Shown here piece after piece: positions 1,987 to 59,903 of a DNA stretch of 64,000 bases; position 1 is the stretch's first letter, and every line of letters begins with the position of its first letter. The DNA comes from an uncultured Methanosarcinales archaeon (GTDB taxonomy: Archaea; Nanobdellota; Nanobdellia; Woesearchaeales; GW2011-AR9): contig CAZGQD010000003.1 in assembly GCA_964527395.1 (NCBI GenBank), positions 29,124 to 93,123 on the forward strand, read 5' to 3'. The notes beneath the pieces were generated by a model. It was given only the letters and a program-made list of their open reading frames with translations, did not search any database and was not told the origin of the DNA. The translations under genes and the position numbers were made by a program.

Positions 1987-2985
1987 TTAATCTTGAGAGA
2001 GATATTTTAAGTATATTTGGAAGAATTTTTTATATGTATTGTTGTATTTTTCTATGATGAATCCGTGCAATTTGTCTTTGTGTTTATTATCAAAGGCTTC
2101 TAAAGCAGCAAAATAGGCTATTCTTTGAGTTTTTCTGATAATTAATGGAGGAAAGTTGTTTCTTAGTAGGATAAGATTGATTAAAAGTCGACCAGTTCTA
2201 CCATTACCATCAGAAAAAGGATGAATCTTTTCAAAAGTTGCATGGAAATTAGCTGCAATTTGTAATGGGTGGAGAGGATTGATTTTGTTTAGTTTGTTTG
2301 TTTCTAATGAGTTGATTAGTTTTTGCATCTCTTTTTTTACTTTTTCAGGAGGAGTTGTTTTTACTTTTCTCCCTAGAAGGAAATTAGGGAGTGTTTTGTA
2401 GTTTGGCTCTATTCCAGTGTTTTTTGTGAGGATTTTGTGAAGTTTGATGATAGATTCTTCTGTAATTTTTGGTTTTTTCTCGAAAATCCAGGTAATTGCT
2501 TCTTTTGTGTTGATAGTTTCGTGAATTTCTCTTAGATTCTTGTTTTTTGGGCTGATATTTTCAGTTATTAAGAAGGTAACGTCCTTTAAAGTAAGGGAGT
2601 TGCCTTCTAAAGCGTTCGATTCGTAAGTGAAATTTACTGTGAATCTGTCGATTATGTCTTGTTTTTGCTTAGTTGTGAGATTTTTAGTTAAGAATTTGTA
2701 ATCTTGGCGGATTTTTTCTAGCTTTTGTATCCTTTCTTTTGAAAAAATATGGTTAGTTTTGTAATAACTTGAAGCAGATTGCATGTAAGCTTGTTCAATT
2801 CTTTCTTTTATTTGGAAATTTGCTTGTTTTAATTGGTTGTTTTTGTTTGTTTCTTTATATGAAATAGGCTTGTGACTCTTTAAGTAGATAGAAATCTTTT
2901 TTACTTTGCCATCTATGGTTCTTATTGATTTTTCTAAGTAATATCTGGTTTTGTTATTGATTATTTTGGCTCTAATGAAGGACAT
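1987..2985 (-). CDS. Fic/Doc family protein (adenylyltransferase-type Fido domain)
   Basis: 332 aa containing the canonical Fic motif HPFSDGNGRTGR. Confidence 0.8.
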   Translation of the reverse strand: MSFIRAKIINNKTRYYLEKSIRTIDGKVKKISIYLKSHKPISYKETNKNNQLKQANFQIKERIEQAYMQSASSYYKTNHIFSKERIQKLEKIRQDYKFLTKNLTTKQKQDIIDRFTVNFTYESNALEGNSLTLKDVTFLITENISPKNKNLREIHETINTKEAITWIFEKKPKITEESIIKLHKILTKNTGIEPNYKTLPNFLLGRKVKTTPPEKVKKEMQKLINSLETNKLNKINPLHPLQIAANFHATFEKIHPFSDGNGRTGRLLINLILLRNNFPPLIIRKTQRIAYFAALEAFDNKHKDKLHGFIIEKYNNTYKKFFQIYLKYLSQD

Positions 2986-3459: not shown

Positions 3460-6400
3460 TTAATCCAAATCTTTAATACTCTTTAGAATGTCATCGGCTT
3501 TGCCTTTCTTTTCTTTTACTGCAGTTGGGCTTGAACCGCCGTGCCAAGTGAACCTTGGACGCATTTGGATTGGGAAAAGACGTTCGTTGTTATCATCGAA
3601 AAGGATTGCTGCTCCTTTTTGTCTTGGAAGATTGTTTAATTCTACATCAAGACCAGTTCGCATATAACTTTGCATCAGAAGTCCTAGGGCCTCAACATCC
3701 ATTTTAGCTGTAAGTCTGTGGCTTAGGACAATGTCAGATTGAGTCATTACGTCAGTGTGGATCTTTCCTGGCTGTTGTGTTGCTAGTATGAGGGAGATAC
3801 CTGGTTGGCGACCTTCTCTTAAGATTGTGATTAATGGGTCACTTGCAGCAGTTTTACCTTCTCTAGGGAGGAGTTCGTGGCAATTGTGTGCAATTACGCC
3901 ATTTGCTATGAAATTGTGGTTTTGATTTACAGTGATATCGAAGAGTGGTTCAGCTGATTTTGTGGTTCTTTTTTGAATTTTTTCGTAAAAGATATTGTTT
4001 TTTAGTCTTTCTTTAATCCATTTGTCGAAGTTTGGAAAGGATTGGGGCATAGAAACACCACTATTTTTATAAATCCAATCTCTTACTTGGTAACTAGGAA
4101 TATTTAGTTCTTTTGCTATTTTTATTTTTCCCCAGCCAGTTTTTTCTCTGATTTGGAAAGCTTTTTTTCTTAAGTTTTCTCTTTGATTTAAGACGTATTT
4201 TCTGGCTTTAAGGTATTCTAACCATAAAAATCCTGTTTTTTGTTTGATTGAGCAATATCTGTAGCCAACTTTTTCTAAGTATTTTATGGTGTTGTCTACG
4301 CTTTTTGCTAAGGTTATGACTAGTTTAATTGATTTAGTTCCATCTTTTCTGATATTGCCTCTTCTTTGTTTGATTTGGCTGACTTTGATATTAAGGTCTG
4401 AGAAGAGTTTTTTAAGTTGATCAGTGTATTCAACTCCGTTTTCTGTTAGTTCTATGTGTTTATTGCATGAGAATCTGATTGGATTAAAGTCTCCACCCCA
4501 TGTTTTTGATTGTGAAGGAGCCATGCCGTCTGCTCCGAATAATGCTGCTAAAAATTCTGCTTTTTCTTCTTTTGAAGCTTTAGTTAACCATTTTGGAATT
4601 AGCATTTTGATGTTTGTTTTGCTTCCAACTGGAGCCCCTAATTTTTTGAAGTAGTCAAAAGTTTTAGCACTGGCGTTTATTGAGTGACTAGTTCCGTTTA
4701 CTGTTGCAGTTTTTCCTGAGACGTGGGTGATTTTAGAGCTTGTTTTTCTAGAATAGATGTTTGATGAAGTGAAACCTAGTGTTTTTAGGTCTTTTTTGAT
4801 CAAAAGTAGGTCATTTTTGTTTGATTTTCCACTAAAACCAACTTGTTTTGGATTATTACTTAGCCATCCATCTCCGAAAATGTGGCCTAGTAATCTTGCT
4901 CTGATTAGTTTTTTGTCTTGTTTATTTGGGATATTTGTAGGGATTGCAAGTTCTTTAGCATCTTTAGTTTCTTGGAAACCTTTTTTTGTGAATAGTTTGT
5001 GGTCTTCTGTGCATTTTATCTTTCTTCCAGTTTCAGTTGTTAGTTCTATTAGTTGTCTTTTTGGTTTTTTGTAGCTTTTAGTGATATTTTGGAATTCGAA
5101 GTCTTTTGTTTTTTGATTATAGCTCCAGGCTTTTAGTTTTTCTTTATTTTCTACTTTTTTTGTGATTTGTTTTATTGTTAATGTGCCTTGATCTGTAATA
5201 ATTGGGGTGTTTGCAGGGAAACATTCATCTATTGCGAGCCAAACCAAAGGGTCTTGTTGTTTTTCTTTTGTTTCTTTACTAAAATAATGCATTGCTTTGT
5301 CAACACTTTGGAATTCTTCAGATTTTCTGGAAAGCATTCTTTCTTGGAAGAGACGTTTACAGACGAGGCCAGCTACCATGGCTTTAATTTCCCAACCAGA
5401 AGGCATGGTTGCGTATGGACTTACATCTAAAACTGTTACCTGACCACCTTTAACAATGTCTTTTAATGGAGTTCCGTCTTTAGAGAATATTTTCCAGCCT
5501 TTGGCTTTTTCAAATGTGTTAATTACAACAGATTTAGTCACTTTTTGCGCTTCTTTGTCTGCTTTTGTTTGTTCTATTAGGTAATCTATTTCATAAGGTT
5601 CACCTTTATTGTTGGTGTTTAGAACTATTTTGCTGATAAGAACTCCTTCTGCAGTGTTTGATTCAATTTTGAAGGTTTCTAGCCAATCTTCTGGACCAAC
5701 GTCTAAAGGGCTGATTGAGAAAGGAAAGTCAGTAGGAATGCCTTCCTCTTTGTATTTGTAATAGAATCCTGATGGTGTGTAGATTTTCACATCTAGTGAT
5801 TTAGGGTCGAATCCCCATTTTTTAAGGAGTGGGGCATCTTGGTAATTTGGATATTTCATTGTCCAGTAAATACCCATTGTATCGAAAAGGACAATTGAGA
5901 GGTTTTGCTTTACTTCTTTTGGAAGGTCAGCTAAACCTTCAGCGATGGAACCCATGGTGTATGAGTTGTGGACTATAATGTTGTTTGCGATGAAGTTGTG
6001 AGTGTTTGGAACAGTTAAGTCGTATACTTCAAAATTTCCTTCTAAAAGTTCTATTTTGGTGATTTGGTCCCAGATTGCTTCTGAGTTTTGTTTTGATTCT
6101 TTTGGAACTGCAATTTGAGTTTGAATTGGAAGAGTTTGAGCAGCTTGCCAACCTTTTTTTGTTAGAAGTGGGTGCTCAGGAGTTAATTTTATTTGTTTAT
6201 TTGATTTTAGAGTAAGTTTTAGAAGAGTTTTAACTTCTCTTTGATAGAAATGAGTGAAAACAGTTGGGGTGATTTGGTTGTTTTTGTTTAGAGTGAGGAT
6301 TTTTGTTTTGTTTTCTTGGCCTTCTAAATTTTTGATTTTTACTTGTTCTCCACTGTCTAGTTGGATTAAAGTGTCACCATGAAGGCATTTTCCGCTACCT

Positions 6401-6573
6401 CTTTTCCCGCAAAGAAAGATTACGTGGGCTCCTGCAACGTCTAAATAAACTGGATTAGAAAGAGCAGTGGTTTGACCCATCTTTACGAACTGTTTTGCTA
6501 TGAAAATAGTTCCTCTTTTACCGTATTTTTTTACGTCATGTTTACTTCGTCCAATGATCACATCAAAAGCCAT
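3460..6573 (-). CDS. HerA/FtsK-like DUF87 P-loop ATPase interrupted by two inteins (extein about 449 aa)
   Basis: After removing the inteins: N-terminal barrel-like region, Walker A GKRGSGK|S split by intein 1, Walker-B-like LVWLAIDE immediately before intein 2, and a C-terminal LREGRQPGISLILATQQP segment resembling HerA (IAREGRKFGVGLTIVSQRP) and FtsK (GIHLVLATQRP). Confidence 0.65.
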   Translation of the reverse strand: MAFDVIIGRSKHDVKKYGKRGTIFIAKQFVKMGQTTALSNPVYLDVAGAHVIFLCGKRGSGKCLHGDTLIQLDSGEQVKIKNLEGQENKTKILTLNKNNQITPTVFTHFYQREVKTLLKLTLKSNKQIKLTPEHPLLTKKGWQAAQTLPIQTQIAVPKESKQNSEAIWDQITKIELLEGNFEVYDLTVPNTHNFIANNIIVHNSYTMGSIAEGLADLPKEVKQNLSIVLFDTMGIYWTMKYPNYQDAPLLKKWGFDPKSLDVKIYTPSGFYYKYKEEGIPTDFPFSISPLDVGPEDWLETFKIESNTAEGVLISKIVLNTNNKGEPYEIDYLIEQTKADKEAQKVTKSVVINTFEKAKGWKIFSKDGTPLKDIVKGGQVTVLDVSPYATMPSGWEIKAMVAGLVCKRLFQERMLSRKSEEFQSVDKAMHYFSKETKEKQQDPLVWLAIDECFPANTPIITDQGTLTIKQITKKVENKEKLKAWSYNQKTKDFEFQNITKSYKKPKRQLIELTTETGRKIKCTEDHKLFTKKGFQETKDAKELAIPTNIPNKQDKKLIRARLLGHIFGDGWLSNNPKQVGFSGKSNKNDLLLIKKDLKTLGFTSSNIYSRKTSSKITHVSGKTATVNGTSHSINASAKTFDYFKKLGAPVGSKTNIKMLIPKWLTKASKEEKAEFLAALFGADGMAPSQSKTWGGDFNPIRFSCNKHIELTENGVEYTDQLKKLFSDLNIKVSQIKQRRGNIRKDGTKSIKLVITLAKSVDNTIKYLEKVGYRYCSIKQKTGFLWLEYLKARKYVLNQRENLRKKAFQIREKTGWGKIKIAKELNIPSYQVRDWIYKNSGVSMPQSFPNFDKWIKERLKNNIFYEKIQKRTTKSAEPLFDITVNQNHNFIANGVIAHNCHELLPREGKTAASDPLITILREGRQPGISLILATQQPGKIHTDVMTQSDIVLSHRLTAKMDVEALGLLMQSYMRTGLDVELNNLPRQKGAAILFDDNNERLFPIQMRPRFTWHGGSSPTAVKEKKGKADDILKSIKDLD
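3883..5223 (-). mobile_element. large intein (447 aa) with a LAGLIDADG-type homing endonuclease domain
   Basis: Begins CFPANTPIITDQGT after the Walker-B-like DE and ends NGVIAHN followed by Cys. An internal LLGHIFGDGW block matches LAGLIDADG. Confidence 0.7.
5965..6387 (-). mobile_element. mini-intein (141 aa, no endonuclease domain) inserted in the P-loop of the ATPase
   Basis: Begins CLHGDT directly after GSGK and ends IVHN followed by Ser (+1 nucleophile). Flanking extein residues reconstitute GKRGSGKS. Confidence 0.7.
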
Positions 6574-7956: not shown

Positions 7957-9084
7957 TTACTTTTGAAGATTTTGCATGAAAGCAATTTTGTTTTCGATAG
8001 GAGTTTTTGTTGGACGTCCTAAATCTTTTCTAGCACCTTTGTTAACAAGGATTTCTAGGAAAACTGGACCTTTCATATCTTTAATTTGGTTCAAATACTT
8101 GATTATTTGATTAGAGTCTTGTGCTTTGAAGGCTGTTTTGTAACCTGAAGCTAGAGCAATTTGGGGAAAATTGATCTCGTGAGCTACTGTAGGTTGGCCG
8201 CCAACAGAATCATGAGCGCCATTGTTAAAGATAATATGAATAAAATTTTCTGGAGCTAAGTCAGCAATGATTGGGAAAGAACCCATGTGCATGATTGCTG
8301 CTCCATCACCATCAAAACAATAAATTTTTTTGTTTGGTTTAGTTAGAGCAATTCCAAGCGCAATTGAGGAGGCATGACCCATACAACCAATTGTTAAGAA
8401 GTCTCTGTGATGGCCAGAGTTTGTTGCAACTCTATGCTCGAAAAGTTCTCGTGACGTTTTTCCTGTGGTTGAAACAATTATCGCTTCGTTGCCAATATGG
8501 TCTGAAACTAATTTAACTGCGTCTTCTCTGCTTAATTCGAAATTTGTGTTGGTGTTGTTTTGTAATTTGTATGCTTCGAATGTGTTTTTTTTGATAACTA
8601 AAGCGTAAGGAGAATTGTTTGTTCTCATGAACTCTTTTGCTTTTTGAATAGTTTCGTTGATGTTTTGACTTTCTGAGTGGATTATAGAGTAAGGTATTCC
8701 TAAGAGTTCTAATTGTTGTTGAGTAATTTCACCCATTTTTTTATGTTGAGGTTCATCTTTTACGCCAGGTTCGCCTCTCCAACCTACGATTAAGAGTGCT
8801 GGGATTGAATATGCTTGAGGATCTGTTAATGATGTAGTTGGATTAACTATGTTTCCTAAGCCAGAATTTTGCATGTAGACTACTGCAGGGTTGTTTGTTG
8901 CTAGGAAGTGACCTGCAGCCATGCCAAGAGCGTTTCCTTCATTTGCAGTAATTACGTTTTGTTTAGGATTAGTATTATCAGTAATATAAGCACAAATTGC
9001 TTTTAGAAGAGAATCAGGGACTCCGAAAAAGGTGTCAAATCTGTGATTTTTTAGAGTATTGTAAAAGATTTCAGGTTTTATCAT
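7957..9084 (-). CDS. thiamine-diphosphate enzyme of the phosphonopyruvate/sulfopyruvate decarboxylase family
   Basis: 375 aa. N-terminal TPP pyrimidine-binding region (GVPDSLL...ANEGNALGMAAG) and C-terminal TPP motif GDGAAIMHMGS...NNGAHDSVGGQPT. Size and architecture match single-chain Ppd/ComDE. Confidence 0.6.
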   Translation of the reverse strand: MIKPEIFYNTLKNHRFDTFFGVPDSLLKAICAYITDNTNPKQNVITANEGNALGMAAGHFLATNNPAVVYMQNSGLGNIVNPTTSLTDPQAYSIPALLIVGWRGEPGVKDEPQHKKMGEITQQQLELLGIPYSIIHSESQNINETIQKAKEFMRTNNSPYALVIKKNTFEAYKLQNNTNTNFELSREDAVKLVSDHIGNEAIIVSTTGKTSRELFEHRVATNSGHHRDFLTIGCMGHASSIALGIALTKPNKKIYCFDGDGAAIMHMGSFPIIADLAPENFIHIIFNNGAHDSVGGQPTVAHEINFPQIALASGYKTAFKAQDSNQIIKYLNQIKDMKGPVFLEILVNKGARKDLGRPTKTPIENKIAFMQNLQK

Positions 9085-9152
9085 TTTCTTGATAAGGTAT
9101 TCTAATATTGCCTTTTTAAAGTTTATTTAAGTAGGTTCTTTTTGAAAAGAGG

Positions 9153-10289
9153 TTATTGAATTTGGTTTATTATATTTTTAATATCTTCTTTTGACATTTT
9201 TCGGGGATTGTTTTTTAAACGCTCTAAATTAATGTTGCTAATGATTAATTCTGAGCAATCATTTATGTTTAGTTTAGAAAGACTTGTTTCTAATTCTAAG
9301 TTTTGAATAAGATCTTTGATTTTTTTTGCAGCTTGAGTAGATGAATTTGTTCCTAGAATCTTTTGTAGCTCTAGAAATGTTTCTTTAACGTGATCTAGGC
9401 CTCTTGGATCATTAATGTCGTAGCCTTCTTTTGTTGTTTGTGAATTGAAAAGGAAAGTTGAGGGGAGTGTTAGAGCTACAGCATGACCGTGAGGTATGTT
9501 GAAGTAAGAAGTGAAAGTGTAAGAAATAGCATGACAAGCAGTGGTTTTTGAAATGTTAATTGCTTTTCCAGCCAAATTTGCAGCAATTTGAATCTTTTGT
9601 TTAGTTTCTGAATTGGGGTTTTGAAGATTTTTTACTCCGTATTCAAGGATTAGTTGCAATGCTTCTTTAGCATATTTCTTTGAAATTGGAGTTGAATTAA
9701 CACTCCAGTAAGATTCTAAAGCTTGGGAAAATGCATCCATAGTAGTTGAAGCAGTTATGTATTTAGGAAGACTATTTGTAAGGTTTGAGTCTAAAATGAC
9801 GTATTTAGGTAGCATACTTTGATGGGTTAGAGAATACTTTTGTTTGCTGATGTAGACTACTGCGAAATGAGTTGCTTCGCTTCCAGAACCAGCTGTAGTT
9901 GGAACTGCTATTATAGGGATTCCAGGATTGTTTATTTGCGATTTTTTGGTGATATAGTTTGCTATGTTTTCATTTTGGTCTTGTTTAACTATCAGTGCTA
10001 TAGATTTGGCCATATCTATGACACTACCACCGCCTATTGCAAGAATTATTTTTGAATTTGTTTTTTGGTAAAGTTCAAGTCCTTTTTGCACATCTTCAAT
10101 TTTGGGGTTTTTTGCGAAGTCTGAGAAGAATGTTTTGTTGATATCATTCGTAATTGCTTCTATTTTTTGTTTTGCGCCACTTTTTTCGTAAGAAGTTTTA
10201 CCTGTGACTATGAAGATGTTTTTGATATTATTTGAAGCTATGATCCCTTGAAGATCTTCTAATTTGTGGTATTCTTGCTGGCTATTCAT
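9153..10289 (-). CDS. iron-containing (group III) alcohol dehydrogenase
   Basis: GGGSVIDMAK and PTTAGSGSE motifs. Position next to the Ppd-like gene suggests a phosphonoacetaldehyde-reductase-like role. Confidence 0.7.
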   Translation of the reverse strand: MNSQQEYHKLEDLQGIIASNNIKNIFIVTGKTSYEKSGAKQKIEAITNDINKTFFSDFAKNPKIEDVQKGLELYQKTNSKIILAIGGGSVIDMAKSIALIVKQDQNENIANYITKKSQINNPGIPIIAVPTTAGSGSEATHFAVVYISKQKYSLTHQSMLPKYVILDSNLTNSLPKYITASTTMDAFSQALESYWSVNSTPISKKYAKEALQLILEYGVKNLQNPNSETKQKIQIAANLAGKAINISKTTACHAISYTFTSYFNIPHGHAVALTLPSTFLFNSQTTKEGYDINDPRGLDHVKETFLELQKILGTNSSTQAAKKIKDLIQNLELETSLSKLNINDCSELIISNINLERLKNNPRKMSKEDIKNIINQIQ

Positions 10290-10395
10290 GATGTAAGGAG
10301 TAAAATTGTTTTTTTATAAGTTTTTTTAATGAATAATTAAGGATTTTGATTTAGAAGTTAATAAAAATAATAAAAAAAGTGGTTTAGTTAGTTTC

Positions 10396-12673: not shown

Positions 12674-13795
12674 ATGCTTATAAATATGAGTTGTTTTGAG
12701 AGAAAAATGGCAAAAGTGATGGTTCTTACTGATCAAACAACAGGAAGGCGAGTTGTAGTTAGAGGTAACACTCAAATTGGAAGACTCTCTTTTCATGAAA
12801 GAGGAATGTGGAAGGTAAGGGGAAGAAATAAACCTAAAGTTTTTGATAGTTTAGATACTTTAGTTTGTGTTTCTGAAGTAAATAAAGTAGTTTCTAGAAA
12901 TCATGCTGCTTTAATCCAGGGAGTTGATGGAGAATTTCATATTGAAGATATGAATAGTAAGCATGGAACTTATGTAAATGGGGATAATATAAACCCAAGT
13001 AAAAGTGATTCAAGGAGTGTATTATTAAGAGAAAGGGATGCTCTTCAGATTGGAAGAAGAACTCGTGGAATTGATGATTGTTTTTTGAATTTTGAAATTT
13101 CTTATCAAGAGTCTGAAAATTATGCATTGCTTGTTGGTACTGGGTCTGATAATTTAGGGGCTGCGCAAAGAGGTTTAGATTCTTTGGAAAGAGTTCTTAG
13201 GAGAAGAGGGTATGTTGTTAGGGTTTTACCTGAAGAAGAAGCAAGCAAATCTAGATTAAGAGAAGAATTAAGAAATATTGCAAATATGTCTATTGCAGAA
13301 TCACATAATATTATTTCAATTTATGGGCATGGAAGCCATAATGGTTTTATGTTGGGTGGACAAGTAATGAATGCAAGAGAATTTTATAAAGAAGTAGGGA
13401 GGATTGCTGGGAAAAAAGCAGCTTTATTGGAGTTTTGTTATTCAGGATCTTTTGTAAGGGGAAGAAATTTAGGGAGGATTCCTGATGGTACTTTAGTTTT
13501 GACAGCATCTAATGCATTTAGTGAAGCAAATGAGACAGAAGATTATGTTGAAGGTCAAGAAGAATTAAGATCAGAATACATAGGTAGATTGGCTAAACAG
13601 TTTGCAGGATATTTGGAAAGAAACCCAGGGCAAATTAATTTGAGGGAATTTTATGATCAATTGAGTGTAGTTTTAGGTGCTAGGAATTTGATGTTGCAAG
13701 GACCTCAGATAGAAGGAGATTTTTACGAGATTCCTGCGGTGAATGAAGGGTTTCATACAGTTATTCTTGATGTTGATCAAATTGAGAATTACTAG
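12674..13795 (+). CDS. FHA domain fused to a caspase/metacaspase/legumain-like cysteine peptidase domain
   Basis: FHA signature VSRNHAALIQ...IEDMNSKHGTYVNG. C-terminal half has YALLVGTGSDNL, the His motif IYGHGSHNG and the Cys motif LLEFCYSGSF, matching the caspase-hemoglobinase fold (C14/C13) catalytic dyad. Confidence 0.65.
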   Translation: MLINMSCFERKMAKVMVLTDQTTGRRVVVRGNTQIGRLSFHERGMWKVRGRNKPKVFDSLDTLVCVSEVNKVVSRNHAALIQGVDGEFHIEDMNSKHGTYVNGDNINPSKSDSRSVLLRERDALQIGRRTRGIDDCFLNFEISYQESENYALLVGTGSDNLGAAQRGLDSLERVLRRRGYVVRVLPEEEASKSRLREELRNIANMSIAESHNIISIYGHGSHNGFMLGGQVMNAREFYKEVGRIAGKKAALLEFCYSGSFVRGRNLGRIPDGTLVLTASNAFSEANETEDYVEGQEELRSEYIGRLAKQFAGYLERNPGQINLREFYDQLSVVLGARNLMLQGPQIEGDFYEIPAVNEGFHTVILDVDQIENY

Positions 13796-13827
13796 TTTTT
13801 ATGCTGGTTTTTTGAGAAGTTCTTTGG

Positions 13828-13979
13828 TTGCGCAATTTGCTCGTTTTGTTTTGTTTTTCTGCGCAATTTTCCCAGTTGATTCTATTTTGCTTGTTTTTGT
13901 CTGATTTTGTGCTTAAATTTCTTGTTTTTTGGCTGCGCAATTTTCCCGTTTGTTTTTATTTTAGTGCGCAATTTTCCCA
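13828..13979. promoter_or_regulatory. four copies of a palindrome-containing operator-like repeat (T/C)TGCGCAATTT(T/G)C(CC/TC), arranged as two pairs
   Basis: Occurrences begin at 13828, 13859, 13933 and 13965 (spacings 31, 74, 32 bp). TTGCGCAA is a perfect palindrome. Located directly upstream of the RelA/SpoT-like gene. Confidence 0.45.
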
Positions 13980-14013
13980 AAGTTTTAAAAAAGAGGGTTT
14001 CTTTTATGGTGTT

Positions 14014-15081
14014 ATGAAGAAAATTGATCTTAAAAAGTTCTCTAAATCTAAGACAGATTGGGCTGGAAAAGTACTTTGTGATTCTAGTAGGTCGGAAGAG
14101 GATAAAAATGTTGCCTTAGAGATTCTTAGCAATTGGAGGGCTGCACATAGTTATCCTATGCATATTTTTACTAATCGGTTACGTAGAATTTCAGGGAGTT
14201 TGGATTCAGGGGCTTTAGTAGCTCAGAGGCTTAAAAGAGTTCCATCGATAATTAAGAAACTTAAGCGTAGTTATGGTGGCAAAAAGGCTAGTATGAAACT
14301 TAGTCAGATGCAAGATATTGCAGGATGTAGGGTAGTTATGTCAGATATAGATTTAGTTAGGAAGATTTATTCTGAGTATTATGTTAATGGGGATTTGAAG
14401 CATGAAAAAGTTAATGAGAAGAATTACATCTTGAACCCTAAAAGTGATGGATATCGAAGCATACATTTGATTTATAGATTTTTTAGTGACAAAGGTAAGG
14501 CAGATTATAATGGGCTTCTTGTTGAAGTGCAAATACGTTCTAAATTACAGCATTTGTGGGCTACAGCTGTTGAAACTGTTGATTTTTTTACTAGGCAAGC
14601 AATTAAATCTAATCAAGGGCAAAAGGATTGGGCGGATTTTTTTAGATTGGTTAGTTCTGCGTTTGCTCTGTTTGAGGGATGTAGCTCTGTTCCTGGAGTT
14701 CCTATTCGGGAGAAAGAGTTGTATGCTATGATTTTTAAAATGGAAAAAGAATTGCAAGTTCGTCGTAAGATGAAGAGTTGGATGGAATCTATAGAAGTCT
14801 TAGATGAGATGAAGAGTAAATATGGTAGTTCTTACTTTTTATTGGAGCTTGATACTGTTCGAGGAAAATTGATAGTTACTGGTTATTCAAAAAAGCAGGA
14901 GAAAAGAGCTCTTAGAGAATATTCTGAAGTTGAGAAGAGAATATATGGCAGGCCTGAGTATGATGTGGTTTTAGTTGGAGCAGATACAAGTGAAGATTTG
15001 AAGAAAGTGTATCCTAACTATTTTTTAGATACTCGAGATTTTATTAGGTACTTGAATCTTATTTTGAAGAAGGTTAAATAG
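14014..15081 (+). CDS. RelA/SpoT-domain nucleotidyltransferase (small alarmone synthetase / toxSAS-like) with a ~150-aa C-terminal extension
   Basis: All synthetase-domain blocks present: RLKRVPSIIKKLKR, MQDIAGCRVVM, SDGYRSIHLIY, VEVQIRSKLQHLWATAVE. Start trimmed to MKKIDLKKF, because the listed upstream extension translates the operator repeats. Confidence 0.75.
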   Translation: MKKIDLKKFSKSKTDWAGKVLCDSSRSEEDKNVALEILSNWRAAHSYPMHIFTNRLRRISGSLDSGALVAQRLKRVPSIIKKLKRSYGGKKASMKLSQMQDIAGCRVVMSDIDLVRKIYSEYYVNGDLKHEKVNEKNYILNPKSDGYRSIHLIYRFFSDKGKADYNGLLVEVQIRSKLQHLWATAVETVDFFTRQAIKSNQGQKDWADFFRLVSSAFALFEGCSSVPGVPIREKELYAMIFKMEKELQVRRKMKSWMESIEVLDEMKSKYGSSYFLLELDTVRGKLIVTGYSKKQEKRALREYSEVEKRIYGRPEYDVVLVGADTSEDLKKVYPNYFLDTRDFIRYLNLILKKVK

Positions 15082-31618: not shown

Positions 31619-31761
31619 GGACCTGTAGCCTAGTCTGGATATGGTTAAAATTGGTTTTTTGCTGATTTTTTCTTAGGATTCATATGGCACCAGCCTTCTA
31701 GTTAGCATGAATTTGCTGATAAGACAGCTGGGGGTCGAGGGTTCGAATCCCTCCAGGTCCG
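31619..31761 (+). tRNA. tRNA-Arg(TCT) candidate with two introns, one in the D-loop region and one at 37/38 in the anticodon loop
   Basis: Acceptor ggacctg/caggtcc, U8-A9, T-arm gaggg-TTCGAAT-ccctc, anticodon stem ccagc/gctgg with loop ct-TCT-a interrupted by a ~25-nt insert, and a ~42-nt insert between the D-loop and the D-stem 3' strand. Confidence 0.5.
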
Positions 31762-39695: not shown

Positions 39696-39702
39696 TGTTT
39701 CT

Positions 39703-39979
39703 GATGCTAGGTCTTTGTTCTGGCCTTTTGCGATAATTAATGCAAAGTCTTTGGCGCGCTTGCCTCCTCACTGGCAATTACATTATGAAATTACACCAAC
39801 AACAAGCATTTTTGTTCATGAAATAGAACAAAAATTATTGCGTAGTTGTTTAGACCTGCGGTAAGTCTGGCCAAGCGCCATAGGACTTTTATTATAAAAT
39901 CGCAAAATGATGAATTTGCTAAAATTCAGCGTCTGGAAAATGATTTTTCCATAAAGGCCAGCTTAAGTACCCAGCATCG
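39703..39979. repeat. inverted-repeat copy A (277 bp), ~98 percent identical to the reverse complement of 59585-59860
   Basis: Direct base-by-base comparison shows only about 4 mismatches. Contains the TGGAAAA...TTTTCCAGACGC hairpin and the aattgccagtgaggagg motif. Confidence 0.85.
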
Positions 39980-42043: not shown

Positions 42044-42844
42044 TTGTTAATGGTAGAATTAGTTACTTTTGTTCTGGTTGTTTTTGTAGGTCTAATTACT
42101 GGTTTTGTTGATTCAGTTATTGGAGCAGGAGGATTGATATCAATACCTTTTTTGATTTTTACAGGAGTTCCGCCACAAGTTGCTATTGCAACAGACAAAT
42201 TTGGTCTGCTTGGGCATATATTTGGGTCTATCCCTAAGTTTTGGAAGGAGAAAAAGATTGTTTGGAAATATGTCCCTTTGTTGTCTTTGTTGGGGATAAT
42301 TGGAGGGTATATTGGAACTAAGATAATAATTAGTGTGAATGAGGCTGCTTTGACAAAAGTTGTTGGGTTTGCTATCTTGTTTTTGTTGCCAGTTGTGTTT
42401 TTTAAGAAAGATTTAGGTTTGATTAAAAAGAAAGTTTCTAATTTGAAGAAAATAATTAGGTACTAGGAAATCGAGGATTTCCTGTACAGGAAAGCTTCGC
42501 TTTCCTTGTATCCGTTGTATTTACTTGCAATGATTTTTGGAGCGTCTATAAGTGCAGGATCAGGACCTATAGTGTTATTGTTTCTAGTATCTTTTTTTGG
42601 TTTAACTTTTATTCAAGCAAATGCAACAGATCAAATATCTTGGTTTTTTTTGTCTATTGTATCTTTGATAGTGTTTGGAATCAATGGTTTGATTGATTTT
42701 TGGCTTGGAATTGCAATATTGATAGGAATGAGTATTGGAGGTTACTATGATGTGAAAGTTGCTGTTAATAAAGGGAATGTTTGGGTTAGAAAGGCATTTG
42801 TAGTGGTTGTGGTATTGTCTGGGTTGAAATTGTTGTTTTTGTAG
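42044..42844 (+). pseudogene. TauE/SafE (DUF81) family anion permease interrupted by a single in-frame TAG at 42464-42466; pseudogene or read-through/recoding candidate
   Basis: ORF 42044-42466 (N-terminal repeat, GAGGLISIPFL) and ORF 42506-42844 (C-terminal repeat, TTG start) are in the same frame, separated only by TAG plus 39 nt. The combined product would be ~265 aa, the usual TauE length. Confidence 0.55.
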
Positions 42845-45654: not shown

Positions 45655-46033
45655 GTAGATTACGCTAGGAAGCTGACGGTATCTTTATTGATGCTGAGGA
45701 AGGTCCGCCCACCGTAAATGAGCCTCCTTTTTAGGAGCTGGAGAAATTCAGGGCTCTGGAACAGAAACGACACGTCCTAAGTCTAGGCACTTAAAAACAC
45801 TTTGTGTTTTTAGGGCCAGAAAATCATATGATTTTCTTGGAATGATATGTGTGAAGCTTTGCGTGAGTGAAGGGAGTTAATCACTTGACTGTTTGAAACT
45901 TAGGGAACGATGAAACGGCGAAACCGCTCTGGTGCAAGTCTTTGACGCTTAGTCGAATGCTTCCAAATGCTTATCGGTAGTACTTTATTGTGCTGCTTTG
46001 GAGTATACAGAAGGTGGCCTATTGCGTGACTAC
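45655..46033 (+). ncRNA. rnpB: RNase P RNA candidate
   Basis: GC-rich island in an AT-rich region. 5' block GAGGAAGGTCCGCCCACC resembles P4 GAGGAAAGUCCGGGCUCC, internal ACAGAAACGACACG is present, 3' block ACAGAAGGTGGCCTATTGCG resembles ACAGAACCCGGCUUAUCG, and the terminal gcgtgactac/gtagattacgc can pair as P1. Confidence 0.55.
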
Positions 46034-51537: not shown

Positions 51538-52776
51538 TTATATCTGGTAATTGAGCTTTTTTAGGTCCATTAGGATTAATTCTTGGATTAGATATTCAAA
51601 TTCTAGGTCGTTTCTTTCGTTAGATTTTTTAGTTAGGTTTAGATATTGATCGAAGTAGCCTAAAGGAAAGTCTAAGATTGGAATTTTGTGATTTCTTAAA
51701 ATGTGAAACATTAGTAGTCTTGAAGTTCTACTATTACCATCATTAAAAGGGTGAATTCTTTGAAATTCGTTATGGAAAAATGCAGCGAAGGAGATAATTC
51801 TTTTAAGATCATTTGAGGTTTTGTTTTTTTCTTTTTTGAATTCATCATAAAGAGTAAGGAGATGGTCTAGTTTTTGGCTTATCTGTTGCCAAGCTGCTGT
51901 TTTGAAATTAGGGTTACCTTTGATTCTGACGTCATGTTTTCTGATTTCTCCTGCACCAAAAGTGTGGTACATAGCTGTTTTGTGGTAGATTAGAATAAGT
52001 TCTTTGGTGATTGTTTTGTTGTTGTTTGCATTTTCTAGCATTAGGTCTACTGCTTTTTTGTAGTTCATTAATTCTTGAATGTTATTCGCAGTGTAATTAG
52101 AAATGCTCTGTCCAGTTAGGATCTTTTGAGTGTCAGGTAAGGTTAAAGGGTTTCCTTCTAAACTTAAACTTTGATGGATGAAAGAGATTTGGGATTTTTC
52201 TTCTAATTTGAATAAATCTATATTATCTTGCTTCTTTATTTTTTTGTATTTAGATAATTCTTTTTTAATTAAAGGAATGATGTCTTGTCTTTTAGTTTGA
52301 TCAAAAGTATTGTCTTTTTTGTGATATTTAAGAAGGTTTTTTAGGAAGTTGTTTTCTAAGAGTTTTGCTTTTAGTGGCTTTTTACTAAATATTAAAACAA
52401 ATCCATATTTTGCTAAGGTGTTGGTATAGTCTGTGAATGTTTTTTGGCTGATGTCTGTACTGTTAGAGTAGAAATATTCTCTAGGAGCTATGTCTAAAAT
52501 GAAATTGATAACTGATTCTTTTAATAAGAAATTGTATGAAAGGTTGTTTTTAATACAAAAATGGATAATGTTGTAAAGATCTTGGCTTTTTTTAGAGTTG
52601 ATTACTTGGAAAGTTTTGTTTTTCTTTGAGATTAGTTTGTTTTTTTTAAGTTCTGAGATGTGATTGTAGATAGAGTTGTAGCTACTTTTTCTTTCTCCTA
52701 GGTATTTATTGATATTAGAAATAGTGCAAGTGCCTTTTCTAGCAATTATGTAAAAAATGTCATATTCTGATACCAT
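51538..52776 (-). CDS. Fic/Doc family protein with N-terminal HTH-like extension
   Basis: Fic motif variant HPFNDGNSRTSR within a 412-aa protein. Confidence 0.75.
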   Translation of the reverse strand: MVSEYDIFYIIARKGTCTISNINKYLGERKSSYNSIYNHISELKKNKLISKKNKTFQVINSKKSQDLYNIIHFCIKNNLSYNFLLKESVINFILDIAPREYFYSNSTDISQKTFTDYTNTLAKYGFVLIFSKKPLKAKLLENNFLKNLLKYHKKDNTFDQTKRQDIIPLIKKELSKYKKIKKQDNIDLFKLEEKSQISFIHQSLSLEGNPLTLPDTQKILTGQSISNYTANNIQELMNYKKAVDLMLENANNNKTITKELILIYHKTAMYHTFGAGEIRKHDVRIKGNPNFKTAAWQQISQKLDHLLTLYDEFKKEKNKTSNDLKRIISFAAFFHNEFQRIHPFNDGNSRTSRLLMFHILRNHKIPILDFPLGYFDQYLNLTKKSNERNDLEFEYLIQELILMDLKKLNYQI

Positions 52777-59584: not shown

Positions 59585-59860
59585 GATGCTGGGTACTTAA
59601 GCTGGCCTTTATGGAAAAATCATTTTCCAGACGCTGAATTTTAGCAAATTCATCATTTTGCGATTTTATAATAAAAGTCCTATGGCGCTTGGCCAGACTT
59701 ACCGCAGGTCTAAACAACTACGCAATAATTTTTGTTCTATTTCATGAACAAAAATGCTTGTTGTTGGTGTAATTTCATAATGTAATTGCCAGTGAGGAGG
59801 CAAGCGCGCCAAAGACTTTTTACCAATTATTGCAAAAGGCCAGAACAAAGACCTAGCATC
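59585..59860. repeat. inverted-repeat copy B (276 bp), partner of 39703-39979
   Basis: Reverse complement matches copy A with about 4 mismatches. Confidence 0.85.
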
Positions 59861-59903
59861 ATGGATTTGAAAATGTTTATATACGGCTGGACTTTATTTC
59901 TTT

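What the first reader, a model, noticed from the sequence alone, without database searches (positions are those of the whole stretch)
7957..10289. Phosphonopyruvate/sulfopyruvate-decarboxylase-like TPP enzyme plus Fe-ADH with no PEP mutase in view
A single-chain Ppd/ComDE-type decarboxylase next to a group III iron alcohol dehydrogenase is the second and third step of hydroxyethylphosphonate-type phosphonate biosynthesis, or of a coenzyme-M-like route. The committed first enzyme (PEP mutase) is not encoded within 64 kb. Either pepM lies elsewhere, or the pair acts on a different 2-oxo acid. Phosphonate decoration in a small-genome archaeon would be notable.
Basis: partly seen in the sequence, partly recalled or inferred. 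Interest (0 to 1): 0.55.

Follow-up and report, generated by a model that had tools for sequence, protein, structure and literature searches.

The report
Phosphonate pathway genes lacking PEP mutase
Two intact neighbouring genes in a small marine DPANN-type archaeon encode steps two and three of a common pathway that makes the carbon-phosphorus compound hydroxyethylphosphonate; the only oddity is that the first enzyme, PEP mutase, normally encoded right beside them, is absent from the 82 kb examined.

Summary
Window 7957-9084(-) is a single-chain phosphonopyruvate decarboxylase (Ppd). It scores 494 bits on NCBIfam TIGR03297 (cutoff 312.5) and fails both sulfopyruvate-decarboxylase models. Window 9153-10289(-) is a Fe-type alcohol dehydrogenase. 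Its homologues lie next to Ppd (nearly always just downstream) in 70 of 84 PEP-mutase loci examined, so it is a PhpC/FomC-like phosphonoacetaldehyde reductase. Both proteins keep every family-conserved residue.

No PEP mutase is found in the window or in 18 kb beyond it, by Pfam, motif search or a custom HMM. In relatives, including many DPANN, Asgard and CPR genomes, the operon is a cytidylyltransferase-PEP mutase fusion (Fom1-like), then Ppd, then the ADH. Phosphonate (CMP-hydroxyethylphosphonate) decoration in small-genome archaea is therefore common in public data, not exceptional.

In this genome the pair is detached, in reversed order, and sits between housekeeping genes. Whether pepM lies elsewhere in the genome could not be settled. 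A related DPANN contig carries PepM without Ppd or ADH, so unlinked layouts exist. However, no PepM of the expected similarity from this organism is in the protein database.

Verdict: a new member of a known kind with an unusual orphan arrangement. Interest is modest.

The parts
7957..9084 (-). Phosphonopyruvate decarboxylase (Ppd/AepY/Fom2-type), 375 aa, a single chain with N- and C-terminal TPP domains
   Evidence: TIGR03297 494.2 bits against a 312.5 cutoff. Pfam TPP_enzyme_N and TPP_enzyme_C. 72% identical to a Ppd encoded directly after a Fom1-like PepM. Keeps 45 of 45 columns that are at least 95% conserved in 76 Ppd homologues from PepM-selected loci, including E49 and the D258-G259-D260-G261...N288 TPP motif.
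9153..10289 (-). Group III Fe-type alcohol dehydrogenase, 378 aa, inferred phosphonoacetaldehyde reductase (PhpC/FomC/Pdh-like) that makes 2-hydroxyethylphosphonate
   Evidence: Pfam Fe-ADH plus ADH_Fe_C. Best NCBIfam hit is TIGR03405 Phn_Fe-ADH at 190 bits, below cutoff, but PepM-linked homologues score the same 184-189 bits. 60-62% identical to the ADH just downstream of Ppd in the closest clusters, and a homologue lies next to Ppd in 70 of 84 loci. Keeps 28 of 28 conserved columns.
10290..10395 (-). Intergenic region between the DnaG-like gene and the ADH. It has a T-rich stretch after the DnaG stop codon and an A/T-rich TATA-like box (cttataaaaaa) about 20-30 nt before the ADH start codon. 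Inferred to be the ADH's own archaeal promoter.
   Evidence: Read directly from the sequence. This is inference only; no archaeal promoter tool was available.
9085..9152 (-). 68-nt ADH-Ppd spacer containing an A/T-rich box (ctttaaaaagg). The two genes are probably co-transcribed, or Ppd has a secondary promoter.
   Evidence: Read directly from the sequence. Inference only.

Best explanation
The two genes encode phosphonopyruvate decarboxylase and a PhpC/FomC-like phosphonoacetaldehyde reductase. Together they convert phosphonopyruvate to phosphonoacetaldehyde and then to 2-hydroxyethylphosphonate (HEP). My confidence in this enzyme assignment is about 0.85-0.9.

The pair is a detached piece of a very widespread three-gene module: a cytidylyltransferase-PEP mutase fusion (Fom1-like), then Ppd, then the Fe-ADH. 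In relatives this module sits among LicD, sulfatase/phosphodiesterase-family transferase, glycosyltransferase and STT3 genes. There it presumably makes CMP-HEP for attachment to surface glycans, proteins or lipids.

In this DPANN-type archaeon the pair has been rearranged. The ADH now precedes Ppd, and the pair lies between a DnaG-like Toprim gene and an unannotated 422-aa gene on the opposite strand that precedes an intein-bearing ATPase gene. The most likely reading, at about 0.5, is that the C-P bond-forming PepM/cytidylyltransferase and the transferases are encoded at another, unlinked locus of the same genome, so that the pathway is complete but split.

What is shown: the enzyme family identities, intact catalytic motifs, orthology to cluster-embedded genes, and the absence of pepM from 82 kb. 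What is inferred: the substrate and product, the existence of a distal pepM, and the surface-decoration role.
For: Enzyme identity:
- Ppd passes the TIGR03297 equivalog cutoff.
- The nearest relatives of both genes are encoded directly after a Fom1-like PepM.
- A homologue of the ADH lies next to Ppd in 70 of 84 loci.
- All 45 Ppd and 28 ADH family-conserved positions are retained.
- The genes are identical in every assembly checked, drawn from several samples.

Precedent for unlinked layouts:
- A DPANN relative (L116/L125) shares the ParA...NAC-Sec61beta synteny with the window at 48-59% amino-acid identity. It carries a Fom1-like PepM with CDP-alcohol phosphatidyltransferase and glycosyltransferases, but no Ppd or ADH within 20 kb.
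- L128 and L153 have PepM followed by the ADH without Ppd, and L191 has PepM alone.

Literature:
- The Fom1 cytidylyltransferase domain makes CMP-HEP, and about 24% of Ppm proteins carry a fused PF01467 domain (PMC6697681).
- PhpC-like Fe-ADHs reduce phosphonoacetaldehyde to HEP (PMC8942020).
- 90% of genomes with aepY also have pepM (PMC9381506).
Against: No PepM, cytidylyltransferase, LicD or other transferase occurs in 82 kb of contiguous sequence.

PepM evolves roughly three times more slowly than Ppd in this clade (92% versus 76% identity between L013 and L024). A co-inherited PepM should therefore be about 85-92% identical to the L013 PepM. The 5.8-billion-protein database includes the assemblies that hold this organism. 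In that range it has only the SI039_bin19-type cluster, which has its own Ppd, and one fragment (P0161) that is NCBI-only and sits on a 1.7-kb contig. A PepM from this organism would thus have to be of a different lineage (79% identity or less) or unassembled.

The genome itself could not be searched. The organism is not among the GTDB species representatives.
Confidence: 0.55

Rival explanations
1. The genome has no PEP mutase at all. The pair is either an orphan remnant of a lost or partly transferred HEP cluster that has not yet decayed, or it works on phosphonopyruvate or phosphonoacetaldehyde obtained from a host or partner cell. DPANN archaea are typically ectosymbionts.
For: No pepM in 82 kb. 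No PepM of the expected similarity attributable to this organism in the protein database. None in the best hits of the metagenome scan. The cytidylyltransferase and transferases needed downstream are also missing locally. In a published survey about 10% of aepY genomes lacked pepM and 53% of phpC genomes lacked pepM (PMC9381506).
Against: Both genes are full length, keep every conserved residue and have promoter-like A/T boxes. A reduced genome would be expected to purge useless genes. The PepM equilibrium lies far towards PEP (established biochemistry, from my own knowledge), so free phosphonopyruvate is unlikely to be available for cross-feeding. The negative database evidence is incomplete: only the top 120 clusters, at 68% identity or more, were visible.
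Confidence: 0.3
2. The pair acts on a different 2-oxo acid. One example is sulfopyruvate to sulfoacetaldehyde to isethionate, or a coenzyme-M-like route. Another is a generic pyruvate-type decarboxylase plus ADH.
For: The ADH is below the curated cutoff of the phosphonate-specific model, and sulfoacetaldehyde reductase SarD is among its weaker hits at 139.8 bits. TauE-family ORFs and an arylsulfotransferase-like gene lie elsewhere in the window. B. fragilis Ppd shows slow side activity on sulfopyruvate and pyruvate (from my own knowledge of Zhang et al. 2003, not checked here).
Against: The sulfopyruvate decarboxylase alpha and beta models score only 88.6 and 113.9 bits, far below their cutoffs, whereas the Ppd model scores 494. 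All close homologues examined are PepM-linked. PepM-linked ADH homologues have the same sub-cutoff TIGR03405 score. No comA, comB, comC or sulfolactate genes appear in the Pfam tables.
Confidence: 0.07
3. Assembly artefact: a chimeric contig joins a phosphonate cluster fragment from another organism to DPANN housekeeping genes.
For: None beyond the unusual context.
Against: The same DnaG-ADH-Ppd-ORF-intein ATPase order, at 100% nucleotide identity, occurs in separate ENA, JGI and Logan assemblies. GC content (0.346) equals that of the surroundings.
Confidence: 0.01

Closest known systems
Fom1-Fom2-FomC module of fosfomycin biosynthesis (Streptomyces) and its widespread non-antibiotic homologues (CyTase-Ppm fusion, Ppd, PhpC-like Fe-ADH)
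   Same: The chemistry for steps 2 and 3 is the same: phosphonopyruvate to phosphonoacetaldehyde to 2-HEP. The window genes are closest to Ppd and ADH genes that follow a PF01467-PF13714 fusion, which JGI annotates as 'PEP phosphomutase / 2-hydroxyethylphosphonate cytidylyltransferase'.
   Different: The Fom1-like gene is absent from 82 kb. The gene order is ADH then Ppd, not Ppd then ADH. No Fom3/Fom4-type tailoring genes or transferase genes are nearby.
Nitrosopumilus maritimus methylphosphonate cluster (pepM, ppd, pdh, mpnS) and the marine HEP/MPn producers surveyed in PMC9381506
   Same: A marine archaeon with Ppd plus a Fe-ADH that make HEP as an intermediate, probably for a cell-surface phosphonate ester.
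   Different: No pepM, no MpnS/HepD-type dioxygenase, and no nucleotidyltransferase or sulfatase-family genes in view. A different archaeal lineage (DPANN rather than Thaumarchaeota).
Bacteroides fragilis AepY (Ppd) / AEP pathway
   Same: A single-chain, roughly 375-aa TPP decarboxylase of the TIGR03297 family.
   Different: The neighbour is an alcohol dehydrogenase, not an AEP transaminase. No aminotransferase Pfam appears in the window tables, so this is the HEP branch, not the AEP branch.
ComDE sulfopyruvate decarboxylase and the heteromeric Ppd RhiEF (PDB 9IZ3/9IZ4)
   Same: The same minimal TPP-decarboxylase fold family. RhiF and RhiE are the closest solved structures (E = 3e-22 and 5e-17).
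   Different: Those enzymes have two subunits, whereas this one is a fused single chain. It scores below the cutoffs of both ComD and ComE models. No coenzyme-M genes are present.

Membership tests
Phosphonopyruvate decarboxylase (TIGR03297, Ppd/AepY/Fom2) | Scores above the curated equivalog cutoff of the family HMM over its full length | tested here: met
   494.2 bits against a 312.5 cutoff, covering residues 16-372 of the protein and positions 2-359 of the 360-position model.
Phosphonopyruvate decarboxylase (TIGR03297, Ppd/AepY/Fom2) | Single chain of about 370-380 aa with TPP_enzyme_N and TPP_enzyme_C and no central domain; catalytic Glu and GDG...NN TPP/Mg motif | tested here: met
   Pfam domains at residues 5-124 and 221-345. 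E49, D258-G259-D260-G261 and N288 are among 45 of 45 retained conserved columns.
Phosphonopyruvate decarboxylase (TIGR03297, Ppd/AepY/Fom2) | Encoded next to or near PEP mutase (EDKxxxxxNS), which supplies its substrate | tested here: not met
   No PF13714 hit, motif or HMM hit from window position -18,083 to 64,000. This is a contextual hallmark rather than a strict family criterion.
Phosphonopyruvate decarboxylase (TIGR03297, Ppd/AepY/Fom2) | Decarboxylates phosphonopyruvate in vitro with high specificity | not testable with these tools
   Needs an enzyme assay.
Phosphonoacetaldehyde reductase (PhpC/FomC/DhpG/Pdh; NCBIfam TIGR03405 Phn_Fe-ADH) | Group III Fe-ADH fold with a GGGS nucleotide-binding motif | tested here: met
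   Fe-ADH 142.7 bits and ADH_Fe_C 118.9 bits. G86-G87-G88, D92 and K95 are conserved.
Phosphonoacetaldehyde reductase (PhpC/FomC/DhpG/Pdh; NCBIfam TIGR03405 Phn_Fe-ADH) | Scores above the curated cutoff of TIGR03405 | tested here: not met
   190.2 bits against 423.7. Four of the five PepM-linked homologues tested (L013, L024, L011, L012) score the same 184-189 bits, and TIGR03405 is the top hit for three of them. The fifth, L120, reaches 343 bits, still below cutoff. The model therefore appears to be narrower than the functional clade.
Phosphonoacetaldehyde reductase (PhpC/FomC/DhpG/Pdh; NCBIfam TIGR03405 Phn_Fe-ADH) | Homologous to the ADH encoded next to Ppd in pepM clusters | tested here: met
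   60% and 62% identity to the L013 and L024 cluster ADHs. A homologue lies next to Ppd, nearly always just downstream, in 70 of 84 loci.
Phosphonoacetaldehyde reductase (PhpC/FomC/DhpG/Pdh; NCBIfam TIGR03405 Phn_Fe-ADH) | Canonical Asp/His/His/His metal site of group III ADHs | tested here: inconclusive
   D185, H253 and H267 (and H269) are present. The position of the canonical second-site His is Q189, but Q is invariant in the aligned cluster homologues and also present in the closest solved structure, 6JKO.
Sulfopyruvate decarboxylase ComDE (coenzyme M) | Passes the TIGR03845 (alpha) and TIGR03846 (beta) cutoffs; two-subunit enzyme; comA/B/C present in the genome | tested here: not met
   88.6 against 147.95 bits and 113.9 against 221.5 bits. 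The protein is a fused single chain. No ComA, ComB or ComC Pfam families appear in the window tables.
Complete HEP / CMP-HEP surface-decoration cluster (Fom1-like PepM + Ppd + ADH + LicD or sulfatase-type transferase) | All of PepM, cytidylyltransferase, Ppd, ADH and a transferase are co-localised | tested here: not met
   Only Ppd and the ADH are present. Relatives L011, L012, L013 and L024 have the full set.

The most novel reading that the evidence does not exclude
A genome-reduced DPANN archaeon keeps only the downstream half (Ppd plus phosphonoacetaldehyde reductase) of hydroxyethylphosphonate synthesis. It would depend on a host or partner cell, or on an unrecognised non-PepM enzyme, for the C-P bond-forming step. 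That would be a phosphonate pathway split between symbiont and host.
Probability: 0.1. Interest if true: 0.6.

Novelty: new member of a known kind. Interest (0 to 1): 0.3.

Why it matters
As it stands, this adds one more archaeal carrier of the common HEP branch of phosphonate biosynthesis. The side observation that DPANN, Asgard and CPR genomes widely carry Fom1-like PepM-Ppd-ADH modules is relevant to marine and sediment phosphonate budgets and to the surface chemistry of ultrasmall symbionts.

It would become interesting if the complete genome proved to lack PepM. Ppd is thought to exist only to pull the unfavourable PepM equilibrium forward. An intact, conserved Ppd/ADH pair without PepM would then imply metabolite hand-off between symbiont and host, an unknown source of phosphonopyruvate, or a new physiological substrate for this enzyme clade.

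Tried and rejected
1. Coenzyme-M/ComDE reading: rejected on HMM scores and architecture.

2. A hidden or divergent PepM in the window: rejected by the motif scan and a maximum-sensitivity six-frame HMM search with working positive controls.

3. Walking out along the contig. This reached 18 kb beyond the window start and found no PepM. The last ~11 kb at that end and 5.5 kb beyond the window end of the 98.7-kb contig were not reached.

4. Chimeric PepM+Ppd query against GTDB genomes. The aim was to catch both this organism's Ppd contig and any PepM contig from the same MAG. The organism is not among the species representatives, so there was no answer.

5. Candidate unlinked PepMs, chosen by similarity or by database source pattern, all belong to other organisms or could not be tied to this one:
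   - P0125 has its own Ppd and ADH.
   - P0236 is in a bacterial-type cluster with its own Ppd and ADH.
   - P0197 is in a different DPANN organism.
   - P0161 is on an NCBI-only 1.7-kb contig with no similarity to this organism's DNA.

6. Metagenome scan with a chimeric query (P0197 PepM plus an upstream protein of this contig). The extension piece was out-ranked and lost.

7. Population dN/dS: impossible, because all assemblies are 100% identical.

8. Window HAD and HD proteins as phosphonatase/PhnZ-like enzymes: the HADs are generic sugar-phosphatase types (phosphonatase model 47 bits against a 220 cutoff), and the HD protein has no NCBIfam hit.
Full report
**What is there.**
The finding's coordinates match two co-oriented minus-strand ORFs exactly: 7957-9084 (375 aa) and 9153-10289 (378 aa), separated by 68 nt.
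- The first ORF has only the N- and C-terminal thiamine-diphosphate domains. It scores 494.2 bits on NCBIfam TIGR03297 'phosphonopyruvate decarboxylase' (cutoff 312.5). The sulfopyruvate decarboxylase beta and alpha models reach only 113.9 and 88.6 bits, against cutoffs of 221.5 and 147.95.
- The second ORF is a group III iron-type alcohol dehydrogenase. Its best NCBIfam match is the phosphonate-cluster ADH model TIGR03405 at 190 bits, below the 423.7 cutoff.
- The closest solved structures are the heteromeric Ppd RhiEF (9IZ3) for the decarboxylase and assorted Fe-ADHs for the second protein.

**Is PEP mutase really absent?**
Yes, as far as could be seen.
- No called gene in the window carries PF13714.
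- No ED[KQR]x5N[ST] motif exists in any frame.
- A profile built from 118 Fom1-like PepM proteins, run with all filters off on every six-frame ORF, finds nothing better than E=0.15. The same profile scores 617-816 bits on control loci.

The window lies on a 98.7-kb ENA scaffold. Walking outwards added 18 kb beyond the window start, again with no PepM. In total 82 kb of contiguous DNA lack pepM. They also lack any cytidylyltransferase, LicD, sulfatase-family transferase or AEP transaminase.

The arrangement is a DnaG-like Toprim gene, then the ADH, then Ppd, then a convergent 422-aa ORF with no family hit, then an intein-bearing ATPase. It is identical at 100% nucleotide identity in ENA, JGI and Logan assemblies. 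It is therefore not a chimera.

**The organism.**
Topo VI, RIO1, a PNO1-like KH protein, NAC, Sec61beta, eIF-1A, a histone and an archaeal RNase P RNA at 45656-46032 show it is an archaeon. A neighbouring SpoIIM-like membrane protein has its best named relatives (70-81% identity) in Nanoarchaeota, Woesearchaeota and unclassified 'archaeon' MAGs. With 34% GC and many short orphan genes, a DPANN affiliation is a sound inference.

**What relatives show.**
The decarboxylase has thousands of homologues at 56-72% identity, annotated as phosphonopyruvate decarboxylase, several of them from Woesearchaeota. In every close relative whose context I fetched, the gene directly follows a fusion of a PF01467 cytidylyltransferase to PEP mutase and is followed by the Fe-ADH:
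- L013: Ppd 72% and ADH 60% identical to the window proteins.
- L024/L047 (MAG 'archaeon SI039_bin19'): 69% and 62%.
- L011 (Woesearchaeota) and L012.
- L120.

JGI names the fusion 'phosphoenolpyruvate phosphomutase / 2-hydroxyethylphosphonate cytidylyltransferase'.

A chimeric PepM+Ppd query against GTDB species representatives returned 80 loci with this module. They come from Woesearchaeota, Nanoarchaeota, Pacearchaeota, Thermoplasmatales, Asgard archaea (including Promethearchaeum syntrophicum MK-D1 and Lokiarchaeum ossiferum), Patescibacteria, Spirochaetes, Bacteroidales, Syntrophomonadaceae, Pelagibacteraceae and others. A homologue of the window ADH lies next to Ppd, nearly always just downstream, in 70 of 84 loci; most of the exceptions are truncated contigs. 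PepM-linked ADH homologues score the same sub-cutoff 184-189 bits on TIGR03405. The weak score therefore reflects a narrow model, not a different function.

The flanks of these clusters carry LicD, sulfatase/phosphodiesterase-family proteins, glycosyltransferases and STT3. L012 also has a B12-radical SAM enzyme.

**Mechanism.**
From the literature:
- The Fom1 cytidylyltransferase domain converts HEP to CMP-HEP, and PF01467 fusions account for about 24% of Ppm proteins (PMC6697681).
- PhpC-like Fe-ADHs reduce phosphonoacetaldehyde to HEP (PMC8942020).
- Ppd drives the unfavourable PepM reaction forward (PMC11066067).

The window pair therefore most likely performs phosphonopyruvate to phosphonoacetaldehyde to HEP. 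Both proteins look functional. They retain 45 of 45 (Ppd) and 28 of 28 (ADH) columns that are at least 95% conserved among homologues drawn from PepM-selected loci. These include E49, the GDG...N TPP motif, the GGGS nucleotide motif and the D185/H253/H267 metal ligands. A/T-rich TATA-like boxes precede each gene, and T-runs follow the upstream DnaG-like gene and Ppd itself (inference only).

**Where is pepM?**
This is unresolved.

In favour of an unlinked pepM:
- Split layouts exist. L116/L125 is a DPANN relative that shares the ParA...NAC-Sec61beta synteny with window 46.7-50.6 kb at 48-59% amino-acid identity. It has a Fom1-like PepM with a CDP-alcohol phosphatidyltransferase, glycosyltransferases and STT3, but no Ppd or ADH in 20 kb.
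- L128 and L153 have PepM followed by the ADH without Ppd, and L191 has PepM alone.
- In a published survey 90% of aepY genomes have pepM (PMC9381506).

Against it:
- In this clade PepM diverges about three times more slowly than Ppd (92% versus 76% identity between L013 and L024). A co-inherited PepM should therefore be about 85-92% identical to the L013 PepM.
- In that range the protein database has only the SI039_bin19-type cluster, which has its own Ppd and ADH, and one NCBI-only fragment on a 1.7-kb contig that shares nothing with this organism's DNA.
- Other candidates chosen by database source pattern belong to other organisms.
- The organism is not a GTDB representative, and the metagenome scan was saturated.

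My estimates are about 0.5-0.55 that a PepM of another lineage, or an unassembled one, lies elsewhere in the genome; about 0.3 that the genome lacks it; and under 0.1 for a different substrate.

**Comparison and novelty.**
Functionally this is the Fom2/FomC (equivalently Ppd/PhpC or Ppd/Pdh) pair of the HEP branch. The decarboxylase is a member of TIGR03297 by the curated test. The ADH belongs to the cluster-associated clade by homology and context, but not by the TIGR03405 cutoff. It is not ComDE.

Phosphonate biosynthetic potential in DPANN archaea is already visible in public annotations. I found no paper in the searched library that focuses on it. The only unusual feature is the orphaned, order-inverted pair in a housekeeping neighbourhood.

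**Verdict.**
A new member of a known kind, of modest interest (0.3). It would rise to about 0.6 if the complete genome proves to lack PepM.

Noticed in passing
window 39702-39978 (+) and 59585-59861 (-): A 277-bp repeat, 98% identical between the two copies and in inverted orientation. It is intergenic and has short terminal inverted repeats (GATGCT...AGCATC), so it looks MITE-like. It has no Rfam hit at gathering thresholds. A JGI contig of this organism ends near window 39862, inside the first copy.
   Followed up: partly
L116 / L125 (JGI Ga0209726_10002596), compared with window about 46.7-50.6 kb: A DPANN relative with the same ParA...NAC-Sec61beta synteny carries, about 4 kb away, an IS200-type transposase, a TylF methyltransferase, a Fom1-like PepM, a CDP-alcohol phosphatidyltransferase, glycosyltransferases and STT3, but no Ppd or ADH. 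No PepM island is found anywhere in the window.
   Followed up: partly
L012 6249-9000 (NCBI GCA_974428215.1): A B12-binding radical SAM enzyme (Fom3-like) sits directly upstream of the Fom1-like PepM, with an extra NTP_transferase between Ppd and the ADH. This hints at a methylated (2-hydroxypropyl-type) phosphonate in an uncultured organism.
   Followed up: no
L128 (Ga0209542_10000833) and L153: PepM is followed directly by the ADH homologue, with no Ppd detected in the flanks available (10 kb on both sides in L128; 10 kb upstream and 1.4 kb downstream in L153). This is another rearranged variant of the triad.
   Followed up: no
window 3460-6573 (-): A 1037-aa ATPase-like ORF interrupted by intein sequences. 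Pfam reports Intein_splicing, Hint and Vint, and two ...HNS/HNC splice-junction-like motifs are visible in the translation.
   Followed up: no
window 12674-15081 (+): An FHA-domain protein is immediately followed by a RelA/SpoT-domain (small alarmone synthetase-like) protein in an archaeon.
   Followed up: no
window 31619-31761 (+) and 45656-46032 (+): Rfam finds a tRNA spanning 143 nt, presumably intron-containing, which ARAGORN does not call. It also finds an archaeal RNase P RNA (132 bits).
   Followed up: no
window 1987-2985 (-), 51538-52776 (-), and about 7 kb upstream of the window (L015 2394-3635): Three Fic-domain proteins, two MazG-like proteins and a PIN-domain gene occur in less than 80 kb of a small genome.
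   Followed up: no
window 42044-42466 and 42506-42844 (+): Two adjacent short ORFs (called products 138 and 104 aa) both hit TauE/SafE. This may be a split or frameshifted permease gene.
   Followed up: no
whole window: GC skew is +0.3 to +0.47 where genes are on the plus strand and about 0 to 0.2 where they are on the minus strand. The coding strand is strongly G-rich over C throughout.
   Followed up: no
L114 1-3484 (about 14.6-18 kb upstream of the window start): A very long gene (1428 aa) with PEP-utilizers and PPDK_N domains, that is PEP synthase or pyruvate phosphate dikinase-like. It is unusually large and may carry inteins or be a fusion.
   Followed up: no
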